From the sequence record MH383160: 64,000 nucleotides of DNA; one strand, given 5' to 3'. The position numbers and the translations under genes were made by a program. Every line of letters begins with the position of its first letter. The stretch's first letter is position 1. The stretch comes from Escherichia phage UB. This document shows positions 27,133-39,069 of this stretch, in pieces. The notes under the pieces are model-generated. The model ran no database searches. It was not told where the DNA came from and saw nothing but the letters and a program-made list of their open reading frames with translations.

Positions 27133-27138
27133 ATATAG

Positions 27139-27169
27139 GCCAGTACTTGATACTGGCTTTCTTTTTTTT
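27139..27169 (+). terminator. Rho-independent terminator of the cassette
   Basis: GCCAGTACttgaTACTGGC followed by TTTCTTTTTTTT; recurs with near-identical sequence after paralogs 2, 3, 4, 5, 6, 8, 10 and 11. Confidence 0.7.
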
Positions 27170-27170
27170 G

Positions 27171-27204
27171 TATTAAATATAGTATAATGAATAAGGAGGG
27201 ATTT
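27171..27204 (+). promoter_or_regulatory. Cassette promoter (-10 TATAAT) plus SD
   Basis: TATTAAATATAGTATAATGAATAAGGAGG then ATG; no clear TTGACA -35; identical module before most paralogs. Confidence 0.55.
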
Positions 27205-28314
27205 ATGTTACCTTTTGGAAGAATGGTTAAGTACGGAAATATTGTACCTGGTCCTAAAAATATAATTAAAGTTGGTGCTTCTACACAAGGTCAATTCTTA
27301 TTGACTGATTCACATGATTTATATTACATAGGTAGAAATCAAGGTGGTGAATCTGGAAATGGTAATACCAACACGGTATCTTCATGGATATTAGTAAGTG
27401 CAGATGTTTCTAATTTTTTCGTGGGTGATCGTACACTTGTTATTATTAAAAATGATAATACTATATGGACATCAGGTCAAACGTACTGGTTCTCATCTTC
27501 TACAACTACTTCTTACAGTACTGTATTAGTTGAAAGGACTAGTTGGTTTACCACGGCTATACCAGTAAGTGAGATTGCTAATATTGTATGTACAAATGGT
27601 TTAATATTTGTACTTAGCACTAATTCAGTACTCTATGGTGCAGGAGATAATGGATATCGTGGTTCTTTGGGTATTGGTTCATCATCAATTTATACATTAA
27701 CTCAATGTGCTACGAACGTTCGTAAAGTAATGACAAATGCGAATGATAGTATGTATCTTACATTAGATAATAAGCTATATAGTTCTGGATGGAATAGTAG
27801 TGGGCAGCATGGTACGGGGAACCAAACACAAATTAATACTTGGGGATTACGTAGTTCTGGTGTAATCGATGCAGCAATTGGTGGTAATGCATTAAATTAC
27901 TATAATGGTACATCATATTTCGTATGTGGTCAAACTCCAAACTTTCTTAGTTCAGGTACGACTACATTCCGTGCAGTTCCTGTAAGTACTTTGCCTAATA
28001 GTTCTCCGTTGTTTATGACGAATTCACCTGCATTAAATACTGCTACACAAATGGTAATTACTAGTACATATCAGAAGGGTGTTGGGGCGAACCGTGGTTT
28101 GGGATTAAACAATTCTCAAACTGGTGCTATATATAGTGCTACCAATTTACAATTACCCGTTGAAGTTAGTGAGATTAGGGATGTTCTTTTTAGTGATGGT
28201 TTGACATCGATATTAACCAAAAATGGAGATGTGTATAGTACTGGATCGTATTACGCCATTCCAGGTGCAATCGAGGATGTTGCAGTCTTTACTAAAATTG
28301 ATTTACCAAAATAA
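27205..28314 (+). CDS. Leader-tagged RCC1-like repeat protein, paralog 2 (369 aa)
   Basis: MLPFGRMVKYGN leader; repeats such as GRNQGGESGNGNT, SGWNSSGQHGTGN. Confidence 0.85.
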   Translation: MLPFGRMVKYGNIVPGPKNIIKVGASTQGQFLLTDSHDLYYIGRNQGGESGNGNTNTVSSWILVSADVSNFFVGDRTLVIIKNDNTIWTSGQTYWFSSSTTTSYSTVLVERTSWFTTAIPVSEIANIVCTNGLIFVLSTNSVLYGAGDNGYRGSLGIGSSSIYTLTQCATNVRKVMTNANDSMYLTLDNKLYSSGWNSSGQHGTGNQTQINTWGLRSSGVIDAAIGGNALNYYNGTSYFVCGQTPNFLSSGTTTFRAVPVSTLPNSSPLFMTNSPALNTATQMVITSTYQKGVGANRGLGLNNSQTGAIYSATNLQLPVEVSEIRDVLFSDGLTSILTKNGDVYSTGSYYAIPGAIEDVAVFTKIDLPK

Positions 28315-28384
28315 CATAATGCCAGTACTTGATACTGGCTTTTATTTTTTGATTAAATATAGTATAATGAATAAAGGAGGAATT

Positions 28385-36540: not shown

Positions 36541-36551
36541 AGGAGAAAATT

Positions 36552-37721
36552 ATGTTACCTTTTGGAAGAATGTTAAAGTACGGAAATATTAAACCAACTC
36601 TTCCTGAAATAAAGAAATTGGATGGTAGTCAATTACATGTCGGATTACTTTATAGTACAGGGAATATGTACATGCGTGGTTCTGGTTCGAACTATAAATT
36701 AGGTACAGGGGATGCTAGTGATGTATTCGGTGGTTGGGTACATGTACCCTATGAAGTTGATGATTTTTGGGCGTGTGTATCCGGTACATTAATAAAGACT
36801 GTTGATAATAAATTATATTGTGCAGGTCTATACATGGGTGGATATTTTGGGGCTAGTGGTTCATATGTTAACTGGACTGAAGTAACTTCATTATTTGTAG
36901 GTATTGACGTGTCGCAAATAAAGAATATAGAATTTACGTCAGCGGGTACGTCAGGTAGTACACTAATATTGATGTTAGATGGTCGTTTATATGGGTTCGG
37001 TATGAACAGTAGATCCGAGTTAGGTGTTAATAACAAAGTTGTATCTCCCATTCTTATAGATACTGGGGTAAGTGCAATAGGAGCACATAAGTTAGGGGGT
37101 TCATCGTTCCATTATATAAAAGGCGGTAAGTACTACAGATGTGGAACATCGGTTGGTAGTAATATTGGAAGTTCTTCTTTGACTACTTTTACTGTATTGA
37201 GTATTCCTGATAACGTTATATCTATGCAAATATTATATGACAACGTACAGTTATTATGTGTAGGAAGTTCTGGATATAGTATCTATATGGCTGGTTCGAA
37301 TGATTATGGTGGAAGAGGTGTTGGCGGTTCTACGGTTTATACTACATTCAGGAAAATAGATCTTACAGGATTTGGTGTTGTTCCCAGTGAAATACTATTT
37401 GAAAATGCCGGAAATGGTTATGTTAATATATCAACTGATAGTACTGGAGTATATACATGTGGTGGTGGTGCGGGTGTTAACGGTTTAGGTAGACCAACTA
37501 ATGTAATACCAAGTTCACAGTTGGGGGTAGTTCAGTTCAGTACTGGAGTAGAACAATCAAATATAAGTCGTGTGTATTCACAGAGTTCGAGTTCTGTTAT
37601 ATATTGTATAGTCAATAATGAATTGTACTGGGCTGGTAGTAATTCATATTTTACTGATCAAACCACATCCACTGGTACACAATTTTCATTTATTAAGATG
37701 AAGGACATGCCTTCTGCTTAG
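36552..37721 (+). CDS. Leader-tagged RCC1-like repeat protein, paralog 10 (389 aa)
   Basis: MLPFGRMLKYGN; follows paralog 9 with only an SD (AAGGAGAAAATTATG). Confidence 0.85.
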   Translation: MLPFGRMLKYGNIKPTLPEIKKLDGSQLHVGLLYSTGNMYMRGSGSNYKLGTGDASDVFGGWVHVPYEVDDFWACVSGTLIKTVDNKLYCAGLYMGGYFGASGSYVNWTEVTSLFVGIDVSQIKNIEFTSAGTSGSTLILMLDGRLYGFGMNSRSELGVNNKVVSPILIDTGVSAIGAHKLGGSSFHYIKGGKYYRCGTSVGSNIGSSSLTTFTVLSIPDNVISMQILYDNVQLLCVGSSGYSIYMAGSNDYGGRGVGGSTVYTTFRKIDLTGFGVVPSEILFENAGNGYVNISTDSTGVYTCGGGAGVNGLGRPTNVIPSSQLGVVQFSTGVEQSNISRVYSQSSSSVIYCIVNNELYWAGSNSYFTDQTTSTGTQFSFIKMKDMPSA

Positions 37722-37792
37722 ATTTTATGCCAGTACTTAACACTGGCTTTTCTTTTTGATTAAATATAGTATAATGAATAAAGGAGGATTTT

Positions 37793-38998
37793 ATGTTACC
37801 TTTTCCAAGGATGATAAAATACGCAAATAAAATGAAAGTTCCTGAAGTGAAAGAAATCTTTATTTACAATGGTTATAGTGCGTCAGTTATTCCAGCAACA
37901 GCACTCTTACTATTATATAAAAATGGAGACTTAATGGGTATAGGTGGAACTAGTTCACAAAACTATGGATTCGGAAATGGTGTACCTAATGCGAAAGTAA
38001 AAGAGTGGACTTTAATATACCAAAATGTAAAACGTTTTAGAACAGCCCAAGGTTCTTTTAATTTAATCCAAACCGAAGATAATAAATTTTATTACAGTGG
38101 CGTAGGTAGAGCTATTGGTACAGGATTAAGTACTGTCAGTACTTATACTGATTGTACTTCATATTTTACATCAGTATTCAATGCAACACAATTGTCCCAA
38201 ATTAAGGACATTCAAATTGTAGGGGAGGGTATTTTTGTTTTACTTCAAAATGGTACGCTATATGGAATGGGGGCCAATACACAGGGATATTTTGGTAATA
38301 ACACAACCACAAGATTATCAACATTTACTTCAATTAATACGAATGTGGATAGTGTAAAAACAGGTTCAAGTGCAGTGATTGTACAGAAAATTGATAAAAC
38401 ACTTTGGGTCACTGGTCAAAACACATGGGGTTCACTTGGTATAAGCAATGGTGAAACTAACATTAGAGTATGGACACAAATGGGTGCATTAGCCAACAAT
38501 ACTGTTATACATTATGAACTTGGTGGGAGTGCATCATGGGTTGTATCTAAACACAACACGAATAATACATATACAGTTCGTGCAAGTGGGATTCAATCGG
38601 AAGGTAACTTGGGTAATGGTTCAGCCGCTTCATCAGGGACAGTATTATCTACAATCTCCACTCTACCAATATCCGATAATATGGAAATGAAATCAAATTC
38701 ATTAACATATGGTGGGCTTACGGTTAAAACTACCAATTCACTTTATATGTGTGGTATAAACACATATGGTAGGCTCGGTCGCGGTAATACAACATCAAGT
38801 ACTACATTTGTAGTTCCAGTTGATGCACCTAAAGTTGGCAGCATCGAGTTATTCTGTCCAAGTGAATGTACAAATGTGTATATGGATAATCAAGGGGATG
38901 TGTATTTGAGTGGCTATATCCCACAAGCGACAGGTACAACAGTTTCTGATTATTACACTAAATTTCAATTATATAAAATACCCAGTCGTGGTATATAA
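37793..38998 (+). CDS. Leader-tagged RCC1-like repeat protein, paralog 11 (401 aa)
   Basis: MLPFPRMIKYAN; GINTYGRLGRGNTT. Confidence 0.85.
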   Translation: MLPFPRMIKYANKMKVPEVKEIFIYNGYSASVIPATALLLLYKNGDLMGIGGTSSQNYGFGNGVPNAKVKEWTLIYQNVKRFRTAQGSFNLIQTEDNKFYYSGVGRAIGTGLSTVSTYTDCTSYFTSVFNATQLSQIKDIQIVGEGIFVLLQNGTLYGMGANTQGYFGNNTTTRLSTFTSINTNVDSVKTGSSAVIVQKIDKTLWVTGQNTWGSLGISNGETNIRVWTQMGALANNTVIHYELGGSASWVVSKHNTNNTYTVRASGIQSEGNLGNGSAASSGTVLSTISTLPISDNMEMKSNSLTYGGLTVKTTNSLYMCGINTYGRLGRGNTTSSTTFVVPVDAPKVGSIELFCPSECTNVYMDNQGDVYLSGYIPQATGTTVSDYYTKFQLYKIPSRGI

Positions 38999-39069
38999 AA
39001 TAAAGCCAGTATTTTGTACTGGCATTTTTTTGTCCTAAATATAATAACGATTTACATTTGGAGGATACA

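What the first reader, a model, noticed from the sequence alone, without database searches (positions are those of the whole stretch)
27133..39069. Identical terminator/promoter/SD cassette between most array members
Nine of the eleven junctions carry the same roughly 60-bp module: hairpin GCCAGTACttgaTACTGGC plus T run, then TATTAAATATAGTATAATGAATAAGGAGG and the ATG. Paralogs 7-8 and 9-10 are joined by an SD alone. Each gene is thus an autonomous unit flanked by identical DNA, an ideal substrate for homologous shuffling, duplication and deletion. The promoter has a TATAAT but no TTGACA -35, so its class (early, middle or late) is unclear.
Basis: seen in the sequence. Interest (0 to 1): 0.65.

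Follow-up and report, generated by a model that had tools for sequence, protein, structure and literature searches.

The report
Repeated terminator–late-promoter cassette in phage gene array
A giant E. coli phage carries twelve tandem genes for virion-associated proteins, most separated by the same ~65-base [quoted passage not shown] module, and comparison with related phages shows whole genes have been swapped, added and lost at these modules.

Summary
The window is an Asteriusvirus (121Q/PBECO4-like jumbo coliphage). It holds 12 tandem + strand genes (25996-40222), all starting MLPF.RM.KYGN. Eight junctions carry a near-identical module: hairpin GCCAGTAC-loop-GTACTGGC, T-run, TTAAATATAGTATAATGAATAA(A)GGAGG, ATG. 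A ninth has the hairpin and a diverged promoter half. Two junctions are SD-only.

The hairpins score as intrinsic terminators. The promoter is probably not sigma-70 type. The only element invariant in 77 distinct cassettes from 11 genomes is TAAATA, the core of the T4-type late box found upstream of capsid, sheath and neck genes in phAPEC6. The TATAAT often reads TATAAC. Published mass spectrometry found array products in phAPEC6 virions.

The conserved block (~105 nt) runs 13 codons into each gene, while gene bodies share only 25-38% identity and one body is an unrelated glycine-rich protein. Eleven genomes hold 9-13 units of 29 types in different orders, with homology breakpoints inside the block.

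The closest known system is the PeSL cassette of T4-like phages. This is a late-promoter variant with a shared coding tag. Transcription itself is untested.

The parts
25919..25947 (-). Sigma-70-type early promoter (TTGACA-N17-TACTAT, with the AGTACTG spacer element) for the leftward array of small paralogs; divergent from the array
25965..25995 (+). Promoter/SD half-cassette before member 1, with no hairpin: TAAATA 25965-25970, TATAAT 25974-25979, GGAG 25986-25989
25996..27132 (+). Member 1 (unit type S), 378 aa, RCC1-like
27139..27204 (+). Cassette 1: hairpin 27139-27157, T-run, TAAATA 27174-27179, TATAAT 27183-27188, SD
27205..28314 (+). Member 2 (type A), 369 aa, RCC1-like
28321..28384 (+). 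Cassette 2
28385..29572 (+). Member 3 (type D), 395 aa, RCC1-like; its TGA stop codon (29570-29572) lies in the loop of the next hairpin
29561..29624 (+). Cassette 3 (hairpin overlaps the end of member 3; 3' arm ends GGT)
29625..30812 (+). Member 4 (type B), 395 aa, RCC1-like
30820..30883 (+). Cassette 4 (8-bp stem, loop TCA)
30884..31621 (+). Member 5 (type E), 245 aa, glycine-rich protein unrelated to RCC1; shares only the N-terminal tag
31629..31693 (+). Cassette 5
31694..32836 (+). Member 6 (type C), 380 aa; modelled as a 7-bladed RCC1-like propeller with a flexible N-terminal tag
32843..32907 (+). Cassette 6 (loop TTT)
32908..34083 (+). Member 7 (type J), 391 aa, RCC1-like
34084..34092 (+). 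SD-only junction (GGAGGAAAAT)
34093..35280 (+). Member 8 (type T), 395 aa, RCC1-like
35298..35361 (+). Cassette 7
35362..36541 (+). Member 9 (type H): 269-aa ORF ending at 36171, the rest readable in the +1 frame to 36541. The frameshift is conserved in 6 genomes.
36542..36551 (+). SD-only junction (GGAGAAAATT)
36552..37721 (+). Member 10 (type K), 389 aa, RCC1-like
37729..37792 (+). Cassette 8 (6-bp stem, loop of 7)
37793..38998 (+). Member 11 (type I), 401 aa, RCC1-like
39005..39069 (+). Cassette 9, diverged: hairpin and T-run, then CCTAAATATAATAACGATTTACATTTGGAGG; TAAATA is kept (39036-39041)
39070..40222 (+). Member 12 (type N), split: 74-aa ORF to 39294, then a 298-aa ORF 39326-40222; tag variant MLPFGRIITSSK
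40878..40901 (+). Related hairpin ATCCAGTACTTGATAGTACTGGAT plus T-run. It is the only other CCAGTAC..GTACTGG hairpin in the window and lies 650 nt past the array, between two minus-strand genes.

Best explanation
Each junction module is a composite regulatory cassette. It has four parts in order: an intrinsic terminator for the upstream gene, a -35-less T4-type late promoter (core TAAATA, read by the phage's gp55-like late sigma factor), a short AU-rich leader with a strong Shine-Dalgarno site, and the first about 13 codons of the downstream gene. Those codons encode a shared N-terminal tag, M-L-P-F-x-R-M-V-K-Y-G-N. The cassette makes most array members separately transcribed late genes for virion-associated proteins.

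The roughly 105-nt block is the only sequence shared by otherwise very divergent units. It therefore also serves as the homology patch at which the phage recombination machinery adds, deletes, replaces and reorders whole units, within and between genomes. In this respect it works like the PeSL cassettes of T4-like phages.

Shown here: the sequence anatomy, its conservation pattern, the array rearrangements and the breakpoint positions. Inferred: promoter use, its late timing, termination, and the function of the tag.
For: Anatomy and statistics. There are 9 hairpins against 0.03 expected. All were detected as terminator-like sites, 23 found against 7.1 expected in the region. Folding energies are -8.6 to -13.3 kcal/mol. 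None of the cassettes scores as a sigma-70 promoter, because the -35 match is at most 3 of 6.

Conservation footprint. In 77 distinct cassettes from 11 genomes, the stem (CCAGT...), TAAATA, ATAA and the ATG/tag are invariant. The loop, the T-run details and the SD-ATG spacer vary. TATAAT reads TATAAC in about ten cassettes.

Modularity. The first member keeps the promoter half but has no hairpin.

Promoter class.
- TAAATA or (T/C)ATAAATA lies 16-47 nt upstream of the major capsid, scaffold, protease, baseplate, sheath and neck genes of phAPEC6.
- Virion gene gp274c has a terminator followed by TAAATAAAGTATAATG, one base different from the cassette.
- TAAATA is present upstream of 0 of 54 genes in the early-type part of the window.
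- phAPEC6 encodes a late sigma factor, gp237c.
- Eight array proteins were found in phAPEC6 virions by mass spectrometry (PMC7247149).

Recombination.
- Unit bodies share only 25-38% amino-acid identity, and one is unrelated.
- Arrays differ in content and order in all 11 genomes.
- The breakpoints against JP4, G17 and 121Q lie within the block. The extra JP4 unit is flanked by the block at window 30816-30920.
- The two-base variant TATAACAAAT precedes five different unit types in different genomes.
- Units followed by a cassette have 5-6 different right-hand neighbours. Units G and H, which lack one, have 2.

The tag. It is conserved at protein level, with free synonymous variation, in distant arrays (MIPFARI.KYGN). 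Those arrays are mostly SD-only operons. In the structural model the tag lies outside the propeller, with pLDDT 53-63.
Against: There are no transcript data for any Asteriusvirus in the library searched. Start sites, timing and termination efficiency are therefore unverified.

The box is ATTAAATA, a 6 of 8 match to T4's TATAAATA. None of the cassettes has the canonical ATAAATA.

The hairpin shows no real covariation. The stem sequence is essentially invariant even in distant lineages. That fits sequence-specific recognition or recombination-driven sameness as well as it fits a terminator.

Block identity within a genome (0.860) barely exceeds identity between genomes (0.848). 'Homogenisation' cannot be separated from purifying selection.

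HSP ends must fall in the block whenever the flanking bodies are unrelated. Breakpoints are therefore localised to the block, not proven to be crossovers within it.
Confidence: 0.7

Rival explanations
1. The promoter is a host sigma-70 promoter that uses the TATAAT as its -10 element, so the units are transcribed early or constitutively rather than late.
For: A perfect TATAAT lies in 8 of 9 window cassettes. It is also kept in the cassettes of a distant 362-kb relative, as GTTAAATATGATATAATGA. The T-rich stretch upstream could act as an UP-like element.
Against: There is no usable -35 and no TG extension, and the cassettes were not returned by the sigma-70 scan. The phage's own early promoters are very different and very strong: TTGACA-N10-AGTACTG-TATAAT, about 20 copies in the window. 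The critical last T of the hexamer is C in about ten cassettes. The hexamer is lost altogether in cassettes of the 366-kb relative, where TAAATA is still kept. The products are virion proteins.
Confidence: 0.12
2. The hairpin is mainly a sequence-specific site (protein binding, RNA processing or stabilisation, or a DNA cruciform or recombination signal) rather than, or in addition to, a terminator. The stem sequence, not just the pairing, would be what is selected.
For: The stem CCAGTAC/GTACTGG is invariant across 77 cassettes while the loop changes freely. The same core is kept in distant lineages. It contains AGTACT, a palindrome 5-21 times over-represented throughout these genomes, which is also part of the early promoters. 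This hairpin type is confined to the array and one neighbouring site, and is absent from 50 kb of phAPEC6 structural DNA (L008). One G17 hairpin is flipped.
Against: Every copy sits just after a stop codon on the coding strand and is followed by a T-run. The changes that do occur are mostly G-U wobbles, which pair only in the + strand RNA. One variant has a compensatory closing pair, G-C to A-U. ARNold called these hairpins terminators independently. No Rfam family matches.
Confidence: 0.2
3. The sameness of the junctions is just the trace of recent tandem duplication and has no regulatory or recombinational role.
For: Tandem paralog arrays arise by duplication, and the junctions would be copied along with the genes.
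Against: Gene bodies are only 25-38% identical, and one is non-homologous, while the block is 85-100% identical. Within the block, variation is confined to the loop, the T-run and the spacers. The block is equally conserved between genomes. The same architecture recurs in diverged form in UE-S1, JNE01 and metagenomic arrays.
Confidence: 0.03

Closest known systems
PeSL (promoter-early stem-loop) regulatory cassettes of T4-like phages (Arbiol et al. 2010, PMC2839356; Comeau et al. 2014, PMC4122927)
   Same: Both are short (about 50-100 bp) conserved intergenic composites of a stem-loop terminator, a promoter and an SD, lying between the stop and start codons of variable genes. In both, the cassettes flank single genes or small sets of genes. 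Insertions, deletions and replacements between related phages have their breakpoints in the cassettes. Each unit brings its own promoter and terminator, so shuffling does not disturb its neighbours (here).
   Different: PeSLs carry sigma-70 early promoters with -35 and -10 boxes, G/C-tract stems placed variably within the promoter, and flank unrelated early ORFans. Here the promoter lacks a -35 and has a T4-late-type TAAATA core. The stem-loop always precedes the promoter. The genes are a paralog family of virion-associated proteins, and the homology block extends 13 codons into the coding sequence. Mini-circles and reporter activity, shown for PeSLs, are untested here.
T4 late promoters (TATAAATA, gp55-dependent) and the ATAAATA late motif predicted in Rak2-like phages CBB and GAP32 (PMC5259590)
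   Same: A single -10-like A/T box without a -35, followed by A/T-rich sequence, upstream of structural genes. A gp55-like sigma factor is encoded by the phage family.
   Different: The cassette box is ATTAAATA (GGTAAATA, CCTAAATA or TGTAAATA in variants), a deviant form. Activity and factor dependence are unknown.
RCC1-like paralog arrays already noted in Asteriusvirus genomes (phAPEC6 paper, PMC7247149; GenBank annotations of G17 and UE-S1)
   Same: It is the same gene array. The paper counts eleven RCC1-like proteins and finds eight in virions. The G17 record marks the hairpins as terminators, and the UE-S1 record marks 'repeat_region' at two junctions.
   Different: None of the papers read or searched describes any of the following: the cassette as a unit, its late-promoter core, the shared N-terminal tag, the non-RCC1 member, or the unit-level shuffling between genomes.
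Integron gene-cassette arrays and phage 'morons'
   Same: Both are modular, self-contained gene units that are gained, lost and reordered at defined boundaries.
   Different: No integrase or attC-type sites were found or are needed here. Exchange is explained by general homologous recombination at a 105-nt repeat. Morons lack conserved flanking linkers.

Membership tests
PeSL cassette (T4-like phages) | Conserved intergenic composite of stem-loop, promoter and SD between a stop codon and the next start codon | tested here: met
PeSL cassette (T4-like phages) | The promoter is a strong sigma-70-like early promoter with -35 and -10 boxes | tested here: not met
   No -35 (at most 3 of 6), not returned by the sigma-70 scan. 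The invariant element is TAAATA. The phage's true early promoters look different.
PeSL cassette (T4-like phages) | Indels and replacements between related genomes have their breakpoints in the cassettes | tested here: met
PeSL cassette (T4-like phages) | Promoter and terminator activity in reporter assays; formation of mini-circles by recombination between cassettes | not testable with these tools
   Needs lacZ fusions and inverse PCR as in PMC2839356
T4-type late promoter | TATAAATA-like box as the only conserved promoter element, with no -35 | tested here: inconclusive
   The core TAAATA is invariant and there is no conserved upstream box. The full box is ATTAAATA, 6 of 8. The same deviant forms occur upstream of phAPEC6 virion genes gp250c, gp247, gp228c and gp274c.
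T4-type late promoter | The phage encodes a gp55-like late sigma factor | tested here: met
   phAPEC6 gp237c is annotated 'sigma factor for late transcription'. CBB has a gp55-like factor. The gene is not within this window.
T4-type late promoter | Transcription starts a few bases downstream of the box, late in infection | not testable with these tools
   No transcript data found. Indirect support: the products are in virions.
Intrinsic (Rho-independent) terminator | G+C-containing stem of 5 or more pairs, loop of 3-8, then a T-run, just downstream of a stop codon on the coding strand | tested here: met
   ARNold annotation in G17
Intrinsic (Rho-independent) terminator | Pairing maintained by compensatory change | tested here: inconclusive
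   90.5% of cells are paired, but the stem hardly varies. There are 11 G-U cells, 10 unpaired cells in the seven core stem pairs, and one compensatory closing pair in a variant.
RCC1-like seven-bladed beta-propeller | RCC1 repeats and a propeller fold | tested here: met
   Pfam RCC1, RCC1_2 or RLD hits in 9 of the 10 members tested. AF2 model with pLDDT 90. Foldseek top hits are UVR8, RPGR, RCC1 and HERC2 RLDs, at E 1e-20 to 1e-15. Member 5 is not a member of this family.
Integron | Integrase with attI/attC recombination sites | not tested
   No integrase was searched for. No integrase-type product appears in the annotated flanks of the array in the related genomes fetched. The repeat is a promoter/terminator block, not an attC-like imperfect palindrome at the cassette 3' ends.

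The most novel reading that the evidence does not exclude
The array is a plug-and-play display library. The 12-residue N-terminal tag would be a universal docking or incorporation peptide that attaches any downstream domain to the virion, for example to the hair-like head and tail appendages. The domains seen so far are RCC1 propellers of many specificities and a glycine-rich domain. The terminator/late-promoter/tag block would be the linker that lets phages in a population exchange these modules freely. That would give each isolate a different repertoire of surface binders, an integrase-free analogue of an integron for virion decoration.
Probability: 0.3. Interest if true: 0.75.

Novelty: new variant of a known kind. 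Interest (0 to 1): 0.5.

Why it matters
The finding extends the PeSL idea, in which regulatory cassettes double as recombination linkers. It moves that idea from the early ORFan regions of T4-like phages to a late, virion-protein gene family in a 350-kb jumbo phage. It also adds a new feature: the linker continues into the coding sequence as a shared protein tag.

It explains why the 'chromosome condensation regulator' genes are the most variable part of otherwise similar Asteriusvirus genomes, as the fEgEco12 paper noted.

Finally, if the tag is a virion-incorporation signal, the tag plus cassette could serve as a natural scaffold for engineering phage surface display or host range in therapeutic jumbo phages.

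Tried and rejected
Covariation test of the hairpin. The stem is almost invariant, so the test is uninformative and cannot be cited as structural proof.

Genome-specific concerted evolution. Within-genome identity is 0.860 and between-genome identity 0.848. The difference is statistically detectable but tiny, so I do not claim homogenisation within genomes.

Antisense promoter in the cassette. The text ATAATGCCAGTACT resembles the reverse complement of the early-promoter spacer and -10. But there is no -35 on the minus strand, and the promoter-like hits are at chance level (86 against 84 expected). Dropped.

Known RNA family. There are no Rfam matches in 25800-41000 even at E of 1 or below.

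N-terminal tag as the 'velcro' strand of the propeller. Rejected, because the tag is modelled outside the fold at low confidence and is also carried by a non-propeller protein.

Protein-based search of IMG/VR for more arrays. It gave only 121Q and two unrelated RCC1 contigs. A degenerate DNA pattern for the tag worked better.

Literature searches for a description of the cassette, for Asteriusvirus transcriptomes, or for the AGTACT bias found nothing.

The 'DNA condensation' function in the annotations is a name transferred from eukaryotic RCC1. Nothing here supports it.

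
Full report
What the window is. Megablast of 27000-33000 matched 36 phage records, all Escherichia or Salmonella jumbo phages of the genus Asteriusvirus (121Q, PBECO4, phAPEC6, G17, JP4 and others). The best hit was JP4 at 95.8% identity, but it covered only 67% of the query. The matched genes are annotated 'regulator of chromosome condensation' or 'putative DNA condensation protein'.

Checking the observation. The hairpin pattern occurs at nine sites, all on the + strand inside the array, against 0.03 expected by chance. The 15-mer AAATATAGTATAATG is exact at eight of them. 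Reading the junctions showed that the real start codons are the ATGTTACC after the AAGGAGG, not the ATG inside TATAATG.

There are twelve members, with start codons at 25996, 27205, 28385, 29625, 30884, 31694, 32908, 34093, 35362, 36552, 37793 and 39070. All begin MLPF.RM.KYGN. Of the eleven junctions:
- Eight carry the full module.
- One (39005-39069) has the hairpin and T-run with a diverged promoter half.
- Two are SD-only (34084-34092 and 36542-36551).

Member 9 is frameshifted and member 12 is split. Member 1 has the promoter/SD half (GGGTAAATATGATATAATGAATAAGGAGG) without a hairpin. It sits back-to-back with a good sigma-70 promoter that drives the leftward genes. A first gene needs a promoter but no upstream terminator, so this arrangement fits a modular terminator-plus-promoter reading.

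Terminator half. All nine hairpins were returned by the terminator scan (23 sites in the region against 7.1 ± 2.8 in shuffles). They fold at -8.6 to -13.3 kcal/mol, with z-scores of -3.0 to -6.5. The G17 GenBank record independently annotates the homologous hairpins as ARNold terminators, and the UE-S1 record marks terminators and 'repeat_region' there.

In an alignment of 77 distinct cassettes from 11 genomes, the stem is nearly invariant while the loop changes freely (TTGA, TCA, TTT, ACT, AAA, AGA, TCT, TCAA and others). The covariation test is therefore uninformative: 90.5% of cells are paired, with 11 G-U cells and 10 unpaired cells in the seven core stem pairs. A variant in UE-S1, JNE01 and metagenomic arrays has a compensatory closing pair (ACCAGTAC...GTRCTGGT). 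This hairpin type is confined to the array plus one site at 40878. It is absent from 50 kb of phAPEC6 structural DNA (L008).

Promoter half. The cassettes have no usable -35 and were not returned by the sigma-70 scan. The phage's own early promoters are unmistakable and different: TTGACA-N10-AGTACTG-TATAAT, about twenty copies, mostly on the minus strand of the window.

Across the 77 cassettes the invariant promoter-region element is TAAATA. The last T of TATAAT is C in about ten cassettes. In the last-member variant and in distant relatives the hexamer is altered or lost, while TAAATA stays.

I then read the upstream regions of phAPEC6 structural genes. TATAAATA, CATAAATA or AATAAATA, and the deviants ATTAAATA, GGTAAATA and ACTAAATA, lie 16-47 nt before the start codons of the major capsid, scaffold, protease, baseplate, sheath, neck and fibre genes. 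Virion gene gp274c has a terminator followed by TAAATAAAGTATAATG, one base different from the cassette.

In the window TAAATA always ends 25-28 nt before the ATG. It is found upstream of 0 of 54 genes in the early-type region 1-25900. The Rak2-like phage CBB paper predicted the same ATAAATA late class and a gp55-like sigma factor, and phAPEC6 gp237c is annotated as the late sigma. Eight array proteins were detected in purified phAPEC6 virions by mass spectrometry (PMC7247149).

Together these results point to late, gp55-type transcription, with the 'TATAAT' lying at about the start site. No transcript data exist in the library searched.

Identity among the units is about 100% for codons 1-4 and 80-90% to codon 13, then drops to about 30% at nucleotide level. 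The proteins share only 25-38% identity.

Member 5 is not an RCC1 protein at all. It belongs to a glycine-rich family (relatives carry Pfam PF21722) whose members in other phages start MLELL or MIELL. Only the tag is shared.

An AlphaFold model of member 6 (pLDDT 90) is a seven-bladed RCC1-like propeller. Its Foldseek top hits are UVR8, RPGR, RCC1 and HERC2. Residues 1-20 lie outside the fold at pLDDT 53-63.

The tag is selected at protein level. In distant arrays recovered from metagenomes with a degenerate tag pattern (contigs of 362 and 366 kb, and L015), it reads MIPFARI.KYGN with free synonymous variation. In the window, synonymous sites of the tag are nearly fixed on codons that are rare in the gene bodies: CCT in 11 of 12 members, TAC in 9 of 11, GGG in 8 of 10. 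So there is an additional DNA- or RNA-level constraint, or ongoing exchange.

Those distant arrays are mostly SD-only operons with only a few cassettes: 3 of 10 junctions in the 362-kb contig and none complete in the 366-kb contig. In Asteriusvirus genomes 6-10 junctions per array carry cassettes. The cassette is old, but it has spread to nearly every junction only in Asteriusvirus.

Shuffling. I clustered unit bodies (tag and cassette removed) at 80% or more nucleotide identity. This gave 29 unit types in 11 genomes, with 9-13 units per genome and a different content and order in each. Some examples:
- window: S A D B E C J T H K I N
- JP4: F A D B O E C V T H K I L
- PBECO4: G A M F B R C D I N
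- UE-S1: F b U A C E B D c

The same type occupies different positions. F is first in JP4, 121Q and UE-S1, and fourth or fifth in PBECO4, SP27 and G17. D is third in the window and JP4, and seventh or eighth elsewhere.

Megablast of the window array against JP4, G17 and 121Q gave segments whose ends all lie between a hairpin and codon 13 or so of the next gene. The extra JP4 unit O is flanked by the block at window 30816-30920. Different units have their closest relatives in different phages: H is 99.1% identical to 121Q, S is 97.6% identical to G17, and C-J is only 85% identical to 121Q. The window is therefore a mosaic at unit resolution.

The two-base variant TATAACAAAT precedes five different unit types in different genomes. 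Units followed by a cassette have 5-6 different right-hand neighbours, while G and H, which lack one, have two.

Two caveats apply. HSP ends necessarily fall in the block when the flanking bodies are unrelated. And block identity within a genome is hardly higher than between genomes (0.860 against 0.848). I claim the block is where exchange happens, not that it is homogenised genome by genome.

Comparison with what is known. The closest system is the PeSL (promoter-early stem-loop) cassette of T4-like phages. A PeSL is a roughly 100-bp conserved composite of stem-loop, sigma-70 early promoter and SD that flanks ORFans in hyperplastic regions. It has been shown to act as terminator and promoter and to mediate modular shuffling and mini-circle formation (PMC2839356 and PMC4122927).

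The present cassette works like a PeSL but fails one defining feature, because its promoter is not a sigma-70 early promoter. It also differs in its fixed terminator-then-promoter order, in flanking a paralog family of virion proteins, and in extending into the coding sequence. I therefore file it as a new variant of a known kind.

The array itself and the terminators are already in the literature and in database records. I found no description of the cassette, its class, the tag or the shuffling.

Function of the proteins. The 'DNA condensation' label is a transferred name. The phAPEC6 authors speculated about an inner-body role. Several facts suggest to me that the tag is a common virion-incorporation or docking signal for a variable repertoire of binding modules:
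- the proteins are found in virions;
- the propeller fold is typical of binding modules;
- the flexible common tag is also carried by an unrelated domain;
- the repertoire differs between isolates;
- these phages bear hair-like appendages.

This is inference only.

Verdict. The feature is real and well above chance. Interest is moderate: a clear case that is directly testable by experiment, extends a known principle, and has a possible engineering use.

Noticed in passing
whole window; also L002, L012, L001, L008, L076, L028/L068, L049, L053, L061: The palindrome AGTACT occurs 275 times in the 64-kb window against 21.7 expected. Control palindromes occur 11-44 times. It lies in coding DNA in all three phases (3.4 per kb) and in non-coding DNA (8.6 per kb). 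The 5-21-fold excess is shared by all Asteriusvirus loci and by about 350-366-kb metagenomic relatives, but not by unrelated contigs. No paper mentioning it was found. The cause is unknown; candidates are a binding site of a phage DNA-binding protein, or a packaging or nucleoid signal.
   Followed up: partly
window minus strand, e.g. 11980-11950, 9245-9215, 7936-7906, 7666-7636, 4817-4787, 3291-3261; also 49923-49893, 61189-61159: About twenty near-identical early promoters, TTGACA-N10-AGTACTG-TATAAT. Many are followed within about 10 nt by a GGGG...CCCC stem-loop and an SD. These look like classical PeSL-type early cassettes in front of small genes.
   Followed up: partly
window 22072-25893, minus strand: A tandem array of about sixteen small genes (59-82 aa), many of them mutual paralogs at 25-59% identity. 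It lies directly upstream of, and divergent from, the RCC1 array. Its copy number differs between the related genomes.
   Followed up: partly
window 30884-31621: Array member 5 is a 245-aa glycine-rich protein. Its relatives carry Pfam PF21722 and include Salmonella phage PVP-SE1 gp19. It has no similarity to the RCC1 members beyond the N-terminal tag. Homologs in other phages start MLELL or MIELL instead.
   Followed up: yes
window 35362-36541: Member 9 has a 1-nt frameshift near 36125 that truncates it to 269 aa. The same truncation and the 380-nt remnant are conserved in JP4, 121Q, phAPEC6, SP27 and G17. The truncated product (phAPEC6 gp007) was detected in virions. It may be a functional truncation or a programmed frameshift rather than a dead gene.
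   Followed up: partly
window 29561-29579: Member 3 has lost its own stop codon and terminates at the TGA formed by the loop (TTGA) of the next cassette's hairpin. JP4 has the same arrangement.
   Followed up: no
window 40878-40901: A related hairpin, ATCCAGTACTTGATAGTACTGGAT plus T-run, lies between two minus-strand genes 650 nt beyond the array. It might stop read-through from the array. G17 annotates it as a terminator on the other strand.
   Followed up: no
L014 (G17) about 13020-13040: One G17 cassette has the hairpin in flipped orientation (GCCAGTATCAAGTACTGGC against GCCAGTACTTGATACTGGC). This suggests inversion of the palindrome.
   Followed up: no
L028+L063+L068 (AGFT01054919.1, 362 kb); L049/L021 (Ga0164306_10000001, 366 kb); L015: Distant jumbo-phage contigs carry arrays of 10-11 genes tagged MIPFARI.KYGN, with protein sizes of 214-388 aa. 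The genes are joined mostly by SD-only or overlapping junctions, with only occasional hairpin-plus-TAAATA cassettes.
   Followed up: partly
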